Below, one piece after another: positions 30,001 to 33,000 of a stretch of 64,000 nt of DNA. Made by a program: the position numbers. The first letter of the stretch is position 1, and the number at the start of each line of letters is the position of its first letter. Source of the stretch: Trypanosoma brucei (Eukaryota); assembly GCA_000002445.1 (NCBI GenBank), contig CH464491.1:4832001-4896000 (forward strand), in the 5' to 3' direction.

Positions 30001-33000
30001 CGCTTTCTAACATCGCTTTCCATTCGGGGCTCGAGCTCGTGGCGTTTAAGTTCATCAGGTCAGTATAAGCCGCTGTCGTCTCTTGCGTCTTTGGCGTCAG
30101 TTTGCCGTGTTTTGCTGCTGCCCATGCTAAGCAAAGCGGCCTCAGGGCTGCTATAGCGTCACCGATTGCTGCTTGTCCGGGCTGCAATATCCCCAAAAAT
30201 ATGGATGCTAGGTAGGTTAACGGTATATGCATAGTTGTCCCTGCTTTTGAAAGAAAAATTAAAGGTTTGCAATACGATTGGTTCGGTGTTTTTTCAGCCT
30301 GCAGAAGATGAAATCTGCCGTTCCCCAGCGGGCCTAGTCTTTTTTCCGAGTATATGGGTAACAAATTTGTGGCTTGCAGTAGCTCAGCTGCTCTGTGCGC
30401 GTTCGCTTGCAGTTTGCCTGCCTATAATTTTCTTGCCTTAAACAAGTCCCATTCTTTTAACGCATCACAACAAGTACTCTCATAAGCGAAATTCAATCTC
30501 TCTCCGGATAATGCGTAAGCTTGAGTTTCCCCCAAACCTTTCGCGTTAAATTGCTTTCTTTCCCACTCTTTATACCAAGTAAGGTTTGATACAACCTTTC
30601 TAGCCTTTGCCTCCCAGGCTAGCGCATGACCTGGAAAGTGAAGGAATGCAGCTTTTCCGATGGAAGTTTCGTAAGGGACTGAGAAAAACCGCTCCTCGTA
30701 ATCTAACCCTATCAGACCCTTTGGCAAAACGAATCTACTGCTTGCTTTTTCTTCCAGTTTCACACTCCACAACAACAAGGGAATATAAATACTTTGCTCG
30801 GACCACCATTCATCAGCCACCGCAAGCACTTCATCGAAGGCGGTTTTAAACCTCTTAAATGCCCACACTCGTGCTATTAAATTACCGCCCCCGAGGTATG
30901 GTTTGCAGGTGTCGGTAAATTTAAGTAGAGGCGGTAGACCTTTCTCTTCTTCCGTCTTGCTTGCCATCTCAAAAAACCATCAACAGCGTTCTGTATGTTC
31001 TTTGTGATCCGAATAAACTATCAAGTCCAACTGAGGTGCAGTGCAATCAGCAGTTGTTATAAACTGAATCGGAGATATTTGATTTCCTTTCACTATTTCA
31101 TCTTCACTAAACTTATTTTCCGTTGCAGCGGCATTCTGCATAAAATACTCCACTGCATTTTTATACTTCTCTTTTTCAGAAACAATAACATCAGATCCAT
31201 CTACAGTTATTACAATATCTTCATCACTTGCATTATGTTTTTTTAAATATTACATAACCCATCTAGACCGTCTGACATGACTATACAAACATCCCACTGC
31301 AATTGTAATAATTTCAACATAGGTTAGCTTGACACTTAATATGAGCGTAAACCATCCTTGAGTTACATGAGTTTGAATGACGACGACAAACAATCTAGGC
31401 TTCTTAGGATCATTCTCTGTTATATTTGTTATGTTATTTACACCAATATTTTTAAGGGAAACAGCGTTTTCACACACCAAATGTAATAGCAACAGTATTT
31501 AAAAAGTTCTCATGGACAAAAATATCATGCACTAACACACCTTTACAATTTGACAGCGTTTTAACAAAAAAATTAGAAAGGTTAAGAATATAGTAAGTCT
31601 CATCACAACGTATATTTTTATTTTCGAGAAGTTTAAAAATTCAATCACAAAACATACAGCTTTGTATCTAAATCTAAAACATGAATATTATGCTTATATT
31701 TGCCTTATTTCTGTAGATGACGAAGAACTTTAGTGCTTTGTCTAGTGTACTTCATCATACAATCGTTTTACTTCCATAATATTCCCATGCATGATAATGC
31801 TTGTCGTCATAACTGTATTTAAATCTGATATATATTCAAATTGTACTCTTTTACCTCTCCTTCTGCCTATTCTTCAAAAATATTCTTCGTTTCCTCTGTG
31901 ATTACCCTCATGTTCACACTGAATCCTCCTCCTCTCCTTTATTGCTTCTGTTTGTTCCATCAATTTAGTACTCTCCACCACCATTAATGATATTCGTATA
32001 TGCACACACTCACAACGCACTCCTATCATTACCATTACTATTCATACAGTATTACCATACTACGTTACACATACTGGCCACTATCTTTTATATCTTAAAA
32101 AATTCTCTCAAAAATAGAAATTTTCATAAAATTCATAAATTTGAGCAAAAATCCCAAATATTTTTCATCCCCAAATCAAAAATGCAAGCAAAAGAGAATC
32201 TTTAACCCCAACAGAATTGCTTCCTGTGGTGTTTGTAGCTCCTGTTTTATCCTTGTTTTATCCCTTTCCTTTCTTTTTGGGCTTGAAAATTTCCCCATCG
32301 AGCTCGCATTTCCCTTTGCATTCAGTTCCCTTCTTACCTGCGCAATCGTCTTCCTTTGCTTGGACTGTTGCTGTTACTGATTTGGCTGTTTGTTTGCTCC
32401 TTTTAAGCGCCAGGCCAGAGAAATAAGCCAGTGCCAAGCCATAGTCGTCGCTTTCTGCGGCTGCCTTGATACTCGTTTTGCTTTCTCCTTTCTCTTGGCT
32501 TAGTTGCAGATCGTCTGTTTCTAGGGCGCTGGAAAACTTGTCAATTGTTTTGCTCTCATCGGTTCCTAGTAGTTTTTTTTACTGCATTTTTACCTTGTTC
32601 GCTGTTGTTGTCTCTTTTGGGCTCCCCTAAAGCTAGCAGTGCTACTTGTCGTGCTACTGGGTCGATCGTCAACGAGCCGACAGTCTCGCTTTTAATGGAT
32701 TTCTGTGTTTTCGGCATCTCCTTCCGATTTTTGCACAGGTAGTGGACGAGGCGCGTACGGTTTATAGCCGGCTCCTTAGAGTCCTCTTCGGCCGGTTTCT
32801 GGCAGTCGCTGCCGGTTAGAAACGGTAGGGACATGGCTGATAGAGGTCCAGGCTTGCCGGCTGTCCCGGTTCCGAGGCCTAGAAAGTTGGTGCCGCCGAA
32901 TGCCGCGTCGTCGCTGCATCCCTTCTGCGTTTCGCAGCTGTCTAGGTCAGCGCCGCTGCTGCCTTGGATTGCGATCTTGAGCAGTGTTGCCGGCGGTTTA

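What the first reader, a model, noticed from the sequence alone, without database searches (positions are those of the whole stretch)
30422..32050. Five-copy pseudogene family (ESAG3-like?) occupies a fixed slot, 70-bp repeat then gene then VSG
Copies lie at 4999-5830, 14560-15500, 30422-31492, 45189-46100 (all minus) and 56800-57700 (plus). The consensus protein is about 355 aa. It has an N-terminal hydrophobic anchor, then ..KPRLFVVVIQTH..GW.., then R(P/S)RWVMEYLEKQN..DIVI.VDGSDVI(V/I)SD..KYE..VEYF.. (a DxD-like box), then ..GLIGLDYEERFF.. and ..NLTWYKEWE.. Every copy ends 170-190 bp upstream of a VSG start codon, and where the upstream flank is visible it follows 70-bp repeats. All five copies are disrupted. 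By abundance and position I suspect the ESAG3 pseudogene family known from T. brucei VSG arrays, but I could not confirm the identity from memory of the sequence. The DxD-like box and signal-anchor layout suggest a GT-A-like fold, which would be worth testing.
Basis: partly seen in the sequence, partly recalled or inferred. Interest (0 to 1): 0.5.

Follow-up and report, generated by a model that had tools for sequence, protein, structure and literature searches.

The report
Dead ESAG3 glucosyltransferase genes beside VSGs

Summary
Five mutually homologous copies lie at 4956-5968, 14515-15604, 30422-31528 and 45189-46223 (all minus) and 56724-57736 (plus). No further copy was found. The focal copy, c3, runs collinear with annotated T. 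brucei ESAG3 (368 aa) at 60% identity (E 2e-145) and has three in-frame stops. The other four carry 4-8 stops plus frameshifts or deletions. Each copy sits 415-790 bp downstream of a 70-bp-repeat remnant and 112-196 bp upstream of a VSG start or start remnant.

The GT-A guess is also right. A 34-member family profile hits the glycosyltransferase domain of human LH3/PLOD3 (E 7.6e-10). A pLDDT-90 model of ESAG3 finds LH3 first by Foldseek (E 1e-8). D110 and D113 of the DXXD motif are kept in all five copies.

All of this is published. Subtelomeric ESAG3 pseudogenes are described in PMC6152948, and ESAG3 pseudogenes 3' of the 70-bp repeats in PMC2567434. ESAG3 as a Mn-dependent GT-A O-glucosyltransferase of VSG3 is in bioRxiv 10.64898/2026.01.27.701950.

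Three smaller details came out of this analysis:
- a c1-c2 gene-conversion tract;
- a footprint of past purifying selection (dN/dS 0.26-0.51);
- all three classifiable partner VSGs are class B.

Verdict: real, correctly interpreted, ordinary.

The parts
30422..31528 (-). ESAG3 pseudogene copy c3, the focal copy. It has 368 codons collinear with ESAG3, an ATG start and a TAG stop. In-frame stops fall at codons 10, 93 and 183, and there are no indels.
31529..31606 (-). Conserved 5' flank of c3 (pyrimidine tract plus AG). It is probably the ESAG3 trans-splice acceptor and 5' UTR. It is shared by all five copies.
   Evidence: alignment A1 columns ~520-600; nhmmer extents
31983..32023 (-). Single degenerate 70-bp repeat unit, about 455 bp upstream of c3.
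30233..30421 (-). 189-bp spacer between the ESAG3 pseudogene stop and the VSG ATG. It has no detectable similarity to the spacers of the other copies.
28928..30232 (-). Class B VSG (Pfam VSG_B) immediately downstream of c3, with its ATG at 30232.
4956..5968 (-). ESAG3 pseudogene c1. The start codon is lost (ATA). It has 4 in-register stops, three frameshifting deletions and an 87-bp deletion. It is followed by a VSG_B with ATG at 4796. A 70-bp remnant lies at 6748-6776.
14515..15604 (-). ESAG3 pseudogene c2. The start codon is lost (GTG). It has 8 in-register stops and 3 frameshifts. A 70-bp remnant lies at 16015-16059. The downstream VSG start (~14322) is cut by an ingi element.
45189..46223 (-). 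ESAG3 pseudogene c4. The start codon is lost (GTG). It has 8 in-register stops, a 77-bp deletion and further frameshifts. The 70-bp remnant at 46974-46993 is weak. Only a short possible VSG start remnant follows, at 45018.
56724..57736 (+). ESAG3 pseudogene c5, on the opposite strand. It has 7 in-register stops, 3 frameshifts and the same 87-bp deletion as c1. A 70-bp remnant lies at 56259-56300. It is followed by a frameshifted VSG_B (57848/57889 to 59364).

Best explanation
The five elements are non-coding relics of ESAG3. ESAG3 is the T. brucei gene for an ER-resident, Mn2+-dependent GT-A O-glucosyltransferase that glucosylates serines in class B VSGs. The relics lie inside silent subtelomeric VSG cassettes, in the co-transposed stretch between the 70-bp repeat and the VSG.

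Shown here:
- They are ESAG3 homologues and none can encode the enzyme.
- The slot is the same in all five.
- They exchange sequence by segmental gene conversion.
- Most of their divergence carries the codon-position signature of past purifying selection.

Inferred:
- Each copy descends from, or was patched by conversion from, once-functional ESAG3 genes that were linked to a VSG.
- After landing in untranscribed arrays the copies decayed independently.
- They now persist as passengers that are copied, and occasionally moved into expression sites, together with the adjacent VSG.
- They have no protein function today.
For: Identity. The match to ESAG3 is E 2.3e-145 at 60% identity, the cluster is named ESAG3, and the alignment is collinear over 368 codons.

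Decay. Each copy has 3-8 in-register stops. Four of the five also have frameshifts or deletions, and three have lost the start codon.

Context. The window contains 70-bp repeats, VSG_A and VSG_B domains and ingi reverse transcriptase, which together mark a T. brucei VSG array.

Slot. A 70-bp remnant lies 415-790 bp upstream of each copy, and a VSG start or start remnant lies 112-196 bp downstream.

Gene conversion. c1 and c2 are 90-98% identical over codons ~45-115 and 46-80% identical elsewhere. The tract carries the shared E96 TAA stop.

Past selection. dN/dS is 0.26-0.51 in the ESAG3 frame, against 0.6-1.5 in the two off-frames used as controls.

Enzyme family. The family profile matches the LH3 GT domain at E 7.6e-10. 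The AlphaFold model has pLDDT 90 and its top Foldseek hits are LH3 at E 1e-8. D110 and D113 are retained in all copies.

Literature. ESAG3 is the VSG3 O-glucosyltransferase with a GT-A fold and a D110/D113/H297 active site (10.64898/2026.01.27.701950). Most subtelomeric ESAG3 copies are pseudogenes and transpose between telomeric and subtelomeric loci (PMC6152948). An ESAG3 pseudogene lies 3' of the 70-bp repeat in BES7 and BES15 (PMC2567434).
Against: Copies c1, c4 and c5 share a W59 TGA stop. c4 and c5 share E72 TAA. c1 and c5 share an identical 87-bp deletion. These shared lesions suggest some duplication after death, which sits awkwardly with dN/dS well below 1 in the same pairs. Gene conversion among copies or recurrent G-to-A hits could reconcile the two, but I did not resolve it.

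Silent arrays are not expected to be under selection, so where the purifying selection acted is inferred and not shown.

Only one 64-kb window was examined, so how general the slot is remains untested here.
Confidence: 0.85

Rival explanations
1. The ESAG3 pseudogenes are kept as functional DNA. On this view they are blocks of upstream homology that guide or bound VSG gene conversion, pairing with ESAG3 genes or pseudogenes in expression sites. They would not be mere passengers.
For: The ESAG3 blocks are 61-73% identical, while the adjoining spacers show no similarity and the VSGs are about 24% identical. A conversion tract between c1 and c2 shows that the copies do recombine. Hertz-Fowler et al. 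note recombination breakpoints at ESAG3 loci in expression sites and suggest a role in orienting exchanges (PMC2567434).
Against: Only 5 of roughly 16 VSG units in the window carry a copy. The better conservation of the ORF is explained by past coding constraint, because the excess of third-position change is specific to the ESAG3 frame. With dS of 0.6-1.5, neutral spacers would be expected to be unalignable anyway.
Confidence: 0.12
2. At least the focal copy c3 is a working gene. Its three stops would be sequencing errors or would be read through.
For: c3 has no indels over 368 codons. It keeps its ATG, H54, W59, D110, D113, G215, W242, E244, Q245 and H297.
Against: The three separate nonsense codons are substitutions, not the indel type of assembly error (TAA at codon 10, TAA at 93, TGA at 183). 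The interface residue W345 is L, Y163 is T and G216 is N. The other four copies are unambiguously dead in the same slot.
Confidence: 0.02
3. The copies belong to a different trypanosome glycosyltransferase family (GRESAG3, or the UDP-Gal/GlcNAc GT67 family) and not to ESAG3 proper.
For: They share the signal-anchor plus acidic-motif layout common to type II GT-A enzymes.
Against: Identity is 59-62% to the full-length BES ESAG3 proteins and about 32% to GRESAG3 proteins of T. brucei chromosome cores. The only hit in the 5.8-billion-protein search is the ESAG3 cluster.
Confidence: 0.01

Closest known systems
ESAG3 of T. brucei bloodstream expression sites (for example Q26748 / CAQ57304; Fam53 sensu Jackson)
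   Same: The c3 copy has the same 368-codon layout, with an N-terminal hydrophobic helix, the DXXD motif (D110/D113), the glycine-rich loop, W242/E244/Q245 and H297. c3 is collinear without gaps at about 60% identity.
   Different: The window copies are all pseudogenes. They are far more divergent than BES copies are from each other; the BES copies fall in one 90% cluster. They lie downstream of the 70-bp repeats and next to the VSG, not upstream of the repeats among the other ESAGs.
ESAG3 pseudogenes 3' of the 70-bp repeats in BES7 (VSG 427-3) and BES15 of Lister 427 (Hertz-Fowler et al. 2008, PMC2567434)
   Same: The order is the same: 70-bp repeat, then ESAG3 pseudogene, then VSG.
   Different: Those copies are in telomeric expression sites, whereas these are in an internal silent array. 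I could not compare sequences because no T. brucei genome collection was available.
Human LH3/PLOD3 N-terminal glycosyltransferase domain (PDB 6FXR, 6WFV) and Mimivirus R699
   Same: They share the GT-A fold, an Mn-binding DXXD motif, a C-terminal His and UDP-glucose use. The profile E-value is 7.6e-10 and the Foldseek E-value is 1e-8 with probability 1.0. The preprint also names LH3 as the closest structure.
   Different: Sequence identity is only about 15%. The acceptor is collagen galactosyl-hydroxylysine, not VSG serine. According to the preprint, ESAG3 forms an 18-mer ring.
GRESAG3 / ESAG3-like genes of trypanosomatid chromosome cores (for example XP_823172, XP_823173)
   Same: They belong to the same family, and D110, D113, G215 and (D/E)244-Q245 are conserved across the 34-sequence alignment.
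   Different: Identity is about 32%. The proteins are 390-411 aa, intact, and not linked to VSGs.

Membership tests
ESAG3 (Fam53, ESAG3 sensu stricto) | Full-length sequence similarity to annotated ESAG3 that is clearly higher than to GRESAG3 | tested here: met
   E 2.3e-145. Identity is 59-62% over 368 aa to the full-length BES ESAG3 proteins, against about 32% to GRESAG3.
ESAG3 (Fam53, ESAG3 sensu stricto) | Location in T. brucei-type VSG expression sites or subtelomeric VSG arrays | tested here: met
   70-bp repeats, VSG_A and VSG_B genes and ingi elements surround the copies.
ESAG3 (Fam53, ESAG3 sensu stricto) | Intact ORF able to encode the 368-aa protein (a functional member) | tested here: not met
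   Every copy has 3-8 in-register stops. Four copies also have frameshifts or deletions, and three have lost the start codon. They are therefore pseudogene members.
GT-A glycosyltransferase, LH3/PLOD-like | Rossmann-like GT-A fold | tested here: met
   Tested on intact ESAG3 (P0001), not on a window copy. The AlphaFold model has pLDDT 90 and pTM 0.85. The top Foldseek PDB hits are the LH3 GT domain at E 1e-8, TM 0.64 relative to the target.
GT-A glycosyltransferase, LH3/PLOD-like | Metal-binding DXD/DXXD motif | tested here: met
   D110 and D113 (the DGSD motif) are present in all five copies. D110 is invariant and D113 at least 90% conserved in the 34-member family alignment.
GT-A glycosyltransferase, LH3/PLOD-like | C-terminal metal-binding His (H297) and the E244/Q245 pair | tested here: inconclusive
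   H297 is kept in c2-c5 and is Y in c1. The full E244/Q245 pair is kept only in c3; c2 has D-Q, c4 N-Q, c1 D-K and c5 G-K. This is decay, as expected for pseudogenes.
GT-A glycosyltransferase, LH3/PLOD-like | Pfam GT_PLOD (PF25342) match above the gathering score | tested here: not met
   P0001 scores 16.5 bits against a cut-off of 27 (E 0.005). 11 of 34 family members match at E<=0.01, the best at 3.2e-10. c3 alone gave no Pfam hit. The relationship is seen only at profile and fold level.
GT-A glycosyltransferase, LH3/PLOD-like | UDP-glucose:protein O-glucosyltransferase activity | not testable with these tools
   Activity is reported for BES ESAG3 in bioRxiv 10.64898/2026.01.27.701950. The window copies cannot encode the enzyme.
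VSG cassette / co-transposed region | 70-bp repeat upstream and a VSG downstream on the same strand | tested here: met
   This holds clearly for c1, c3 and c5. For c2 the VSG is cut by ingi. For c4 both flanks are weak.

The most novel reading that the evidence does not exclude
The adjacency may not be accidental. ESAG3 and class B VSGs could once have formed enzyme-substrate gene pairs, with the O-glucosyltransferase gene immediately upstream of the coat gene it modifies. The array copies would then be decayed remains of that arrangement.

Four observations are consistent with this:
- All three classifiable VSGs behind an ESAG3 pseudogene are class B, and each carries the Cys-flanked Ser/Thr loop.
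- No class A VSG in the window has an ESAG3 pseudogene upstream.
- Lister 427 BES7 has an ESAG3 pseudogene directly upstream of VSG3, the proven substrate.
- The copies bear a clear footprint of past purifying selection.
Probability: 0.08. Interest if true: 0.5.

Novelty: already known. Interest (0 to 1): 0.15.

Why it matters
The finding adds little new. It confirms that a reader working from raw sequence alone correctly recognised a known pseudogene family.

The residual value lies in small details that a genome-wide survey could turn into a statement about how VSG cassettes evolve:
- Array ESAG3 copies carry a selection footprint.
- They exchange segments by gene conversion.
- In this window they are linked only to class B VSGs, the class that ESAG3 glucosylates.

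Tried and rejected
- Pfam and PDB sequence searches with the c3 conceptual protein alone gave nothing useful. The LH3 relationship appeared only with a family profile.
- Two word-indexed homologue searches returned only the ESAG3 cluster itself. The exhaustive HMMER search was needed to reach GRESAG3 and more distant relatives.
- Exact-protein look-ups did not locate the window or an ESAG3 locus in public assemblies. I therefore could not determine the strain or chromosome, and no BES ESAG3 DNA was available for comparison.
- I looked for additional, more degenerate ESAG3 remnants upstream of the other VSGs with nhmmer --max and a sensitive tblastn. None was found beyond one marginal 46-nt hit of the 5' flank at 37719-37764.
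- I tested whether the ESAG3-to-VSG spacers are homologous. They are not, with z <= 2.1.
- I tested whether the downstream VSGs form a closer subfamily, which would indicate recent block duplication. They do not, at about 24% identity, no closer than to other VSG_B genes.
- I checked whether the class B O-glycosylation loop is specific to the ESAG3-linked VSGs. It is not, because the two other VSG_B genes have it too.
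Full report
**Context**

The window is a Trypanosoma brucei-type silent VSG array.
- It holds canonical 70-bp repeats, with core GAGTGTTGTGAGTGTGTATATACGAATATTATAATAAGAG. There are 14 matches at up to 3 mismatches against none expected. 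Tandem arrays lie at 59658-60268 and 62702-63377, and single remnants are scattered elsewhere.
- It holds about 16 VSG genes or fragments with Pfam VSG_B, Trypan_glycop and Trypan_glycop_C domains.
- An ingi-type retroelement (RVT_1, RNase H, zinc fingers) runs from 9799 to about 14270 on the plus strand. A second endonuclease-like ORF lies at 47052-48176.
- Genes lie on the minus strand up to about 46 kb and on the plus strand from about 50 kb.

**The observation**

Three independent methods find the same five copies and no others:
- BLASTN of the focal region against the window.
- tblastn with ESAG3.
- An nhmmer profile built from the five-copy alignment, together with the generic repeat finder (families D2, D3, D5 and inverted pairs I1-I3, I5).

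From start-codon column to stop column of alignment A1, the copies are c1 4956-5968 (-), c2 14515-15604 (-), c3 30422-31528 (-), c4 45189-46223 (-) and c5 56724-57736 (+). A further 75-80 bp of 5' flank, a pyrimidine tract followed by AG, is also conserved. This is what a trans-splice acceptor and short 5' UTR would look like; that reading is inference.

Homology stops exactly at the ESAG3 stop codon. Sliding-window identity falls from 50-70% to random level after column 1721. The 150-195 bp spacers to the VSG start show no similarity to each other or to the upstream regions of other VSGs, with z <= 2.1.

**Identity**

The c3 reading frame is open from the ATG at 31528 to the TAG at 30422, apart from three nonsense codons.
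- Its conceptual product hits a single cluster in the 5.8-billion-protein database at E 2.3e-145, 60% identity and 89% coverage.
- Eleven of that cluster's 15 members are named ESAG3, expression site-associated protein 3 or Esag3. They come from T. brucei brucei, T. brucei and T. b. gambiense, and most are 368 aa.
- tblastn aligns all 368 codons of ESAG3 to c3 without a gap.
- c3 is 59-62% identical to the full-length expression-site ESAG3 proteins, but only about 32% identical to the chromosome-internal ESAG3-like (GRESAG3) proteins.

**Pseudogene status**

- c3: TAA at codon 10, TAA at codon 93, TGA at codon 183, and no indels.
- c1: 4 stops; deletions of 1, 1 and 2 bp; an 87-bp deletion; start codon ATA.
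- c2: 8 stops, three 1-bp indels, start codon GTG.
- c4: 8 stops, a 77-bp deletion and further frameshifts, start codon GTG.
- c5: 7 stops, three 1-bp indels, and the same 87-bp deletion as c1.

Some lesions are shared between copies. W59 is TGA in c1, c4 and c5, and TAG in c2. E96 TAA is shared by c1 and c2. E72 TAA is shared by c4 and c5.

**The slot**

A 70-bp-repeat remnant lies upstream of each copy. The distances below are measured to the start-codon coordinates.
- c1: 6748-6776, about 780 bp upstream.
- c2: 16015-16059, about 410 bp upstream.
- c3: 31983-32023, about 455 bp upstream.
- c5: 56259-56300, about 425 bp upstream.
- c4: 46974-46993, about 750 bp upstream. This one is weak, with score 30 against a shuffle maximum of 26.

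Downstream, the picture is as follows.
- c1 is followed by a VSG_B starting at 4796, about 160 bp away.
- c3 is followed by a VSG_B starting at 30232, 190 bp away.
- c5 is followed by a frameshifted VSG_B, with its ATG at 57848 (112 bp) and its signal peptide from 57889 (153 bp).
- c2 is followed by a signal-peptide-like start at about 14322 (184-196 bp). An ingi poly(A) end interrupts it after about 20 codons.
- c4 is followed only by a 58-codon ORF with a possible start at 45018 (171 bp). I could not verify this as a VSG.

Only five of roughly 16 VSG units carry an ESAG3 pseudogene.

**How the copies evolved**

Pairwise nucleotide identity over the ORF is 61-73%.

c1 and c2 are 90-98% identical across codons ~45-115 and 46-80% identical elsewhere. 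This is a clear segmental gene-conversion tract between copies 9.6 kb apart, and it explains their shared E96 stop.

Nei-Gojobori dN/dS in the ESAG3 frame is 0.26-0.51 for all ten pairs. The same alignment read in the two other frames gives 0.6-1.5. The excess of synonymous change is therefore specific to the coding frame. Much of the divergence arose while the sequences, or the donors that patched them, were under coding constraint.

With dS of 0.6-1.5, truly neutral flanks should be unalignable. This accounts for the abrupt loss of similarity at the stop codon without invoking a recombination boundary.

The downstream VSGs are only about 24% identical to each other, no closer than to other VSG_B genes in the window. 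These are therefore not recent block duplications.

The shared W59, E72 and 87-bp lesions fit poorly with independent decay. They may reflect further conversion among dead copies or recurrent G-to-A hits. I leave this unresolved.

**What the ancestral gene does**

An exhaustive HMMER search found 46 relatives. The named ones are ESAG-like proteins of T. brucei cores, T. vivax and T. conorhini.
- In a 34-sequence alignment D110, C162, G215 and A223 are invariant, and D113 and (D/E)244-Q245 are conserved in at least 90% of sequences.
- The profile matches the glycosyltransferase domain of human LH3/PLOD3 in the PDB at E 7.6e-10. The match covers both the DXXD region and the C-terminal His region.
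- Pfam GT_PLOD is hit by 11 of 34 members, with a best E-value of 3.2e-10. ESAG3 itself scores only 16.5 bits, below the cut-off of 27.
- An AlphaFold2 model of ESAG3 built on this alignment has mean pLDDT 90 and pTM 0.85.
- Its best Foldseek matches among solved structures are LH3 (6WFV at E 9.8e-9; 6FXR at 2.3e-8). Next come the Mimivirus R699 collagen glycosyltransferase and then other GT-A and nucleotidyltransferase folds.
- D110 and D113 survive in all five window copies, and H297 survives in four.

**What is already known**

A 2026 bioRxiv preprint (10.64898/2026.01.27.701950) makes the following points:
- ESAG3 is the Mn2+-dependent, UDP-glucose-specific O-glucosyltransferase required for O-glycosylation of VSG3.
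- It has a canonical GT-A fold closest to LH3/PLOD3, with DXXD (D110/D113), H297, G215-G216 and E244/Q245.
- It assembles as an 18-mer ring and resides in the ER.

Abbas et al. 2018 (PMC6152948) state that T. brucei ESAG3 (Fam53) lies both in expression sites and throughout subtelomeric loci. They add that most of the subtelomeric copies are pseudogenes and that the genes transpose between the two compartments.

Hertz-Fowler et al. 2008 (PMC2567434) list an 'ESAG3 pseudogene 3' of 70-bp repeat' in BES7 (VSG 427-3) and BES15. This is the same slot.

Family identity, pseudogene status, the slot and the fold are therefore all in the literature.

**Verdict**

The most likely account is passive. 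Decayed ESAG3 copies ride in the co-transposed region of VSG cassettes, are shuffled by gene conversion and encode nothing.

A role as recombination homology is possible but not needed to explain the data.

The only mildly new points are the conversion tract, the selection footprint and the exclusive pairing with class B VSGs in this window. The numbers are 3 of 3 classifiable partners, against 0 of about 4 class A genes, which is too few to be significant. The two class B VSGs without a pseudogene carry the same O-glycosylation loop.

The speculative reading that ESAG3 and class B VSGs were once enzyme-substrate gene pairs is not excluded, but it is unlikely on present evidence.

Noticed in passing
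c1 ~5620-5835 and c2 ~15260-15470 (minus strand): The two pseudogenes are 90-98% identical over codons ~45-115 and 46-80% identical elsewhere. This is a segmental gene-conversion tract between copies 9.6 kb apart, and it carries their shared E96 TAA stop.
   Followed up: yes
all five ESAG3 pseudogene copies: dN/dS is 0.26-0.51 in the ESAG3 frame against 0.6-1.5 in the off-frame controls. Yet several stops (W59, E72) and an identical 87-bp deletion (c1, c5) are shared in a pattern that does not fit a single tree. The conflict between the selection footprint and the shared lesions is not resolved.
   Followed up: partly
3681-4796 (-), 28928-30232 (-), 57848-59364 (+): Every classifiable VSG directly behind an ESAG3 pseudogene is class B (Pfam VSG_B). 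Each carries the Cys-flanked Ser/Thr loop before C-V-x-Y (GTC-DGDSNNGL-CVRY, TAC-DETNAA-CVEY, TDC-HGHSESGQ-CVLY), which corresponds to the O-glucosylation loop of VSG3. The two VSG_B genes without a pseudogene (22505-23170, 35063-36199) have the loop too.
   Followed up: partly
9799 to ~14270 (+): An ingi-type non-LTR retroelement (RVT_1, RNase H, C2H2 fingers) has its poly(A) end at about 14270. It interrupts the VSG behind c2 after about 20 codons. The VSG fragment on its far side (8765-9397, minus) is only a C-terminal piece, so the insertion appears to be accompanied by a deletion or rearrangement.
   Followed up: partly
~46.3-50 kb: This is a strand-switch region. VSG units point leftward below about 46 kb and rightward above about 50 kb. 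A second ingi-like endonuclease ORF (47052-48176, +) lies at the switch, and AT skew changes sign there.
   Followed up: no
1176-1475 and 36758-37057: A 300-nt direct repeat at 80% identity, unrelated to ESAG3. One arm lies in an unclassified 319-aa ORF (950-1909, minus). The other arm lies upstream of the VSG_B at 35063-36199.
   Followed up: no
37719-37764 (-): A marginal nhmmer match (E 0.0014) to the conserved ESAG3 5' flank only. It lies between a 70-bp repeat (38400) and a VSG_B. It is possibly the last trace of a sixth copy, or chance.
   Followed up: no
52978-53129, 59658-60268, 62702-63377: The 70-bp repeat arrays have a unit of about 81 bp because of expanded TAA/TAATAA tracts. Only single degenerate units remain upstream of most minus-strand VSGs.
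   Followed up: no
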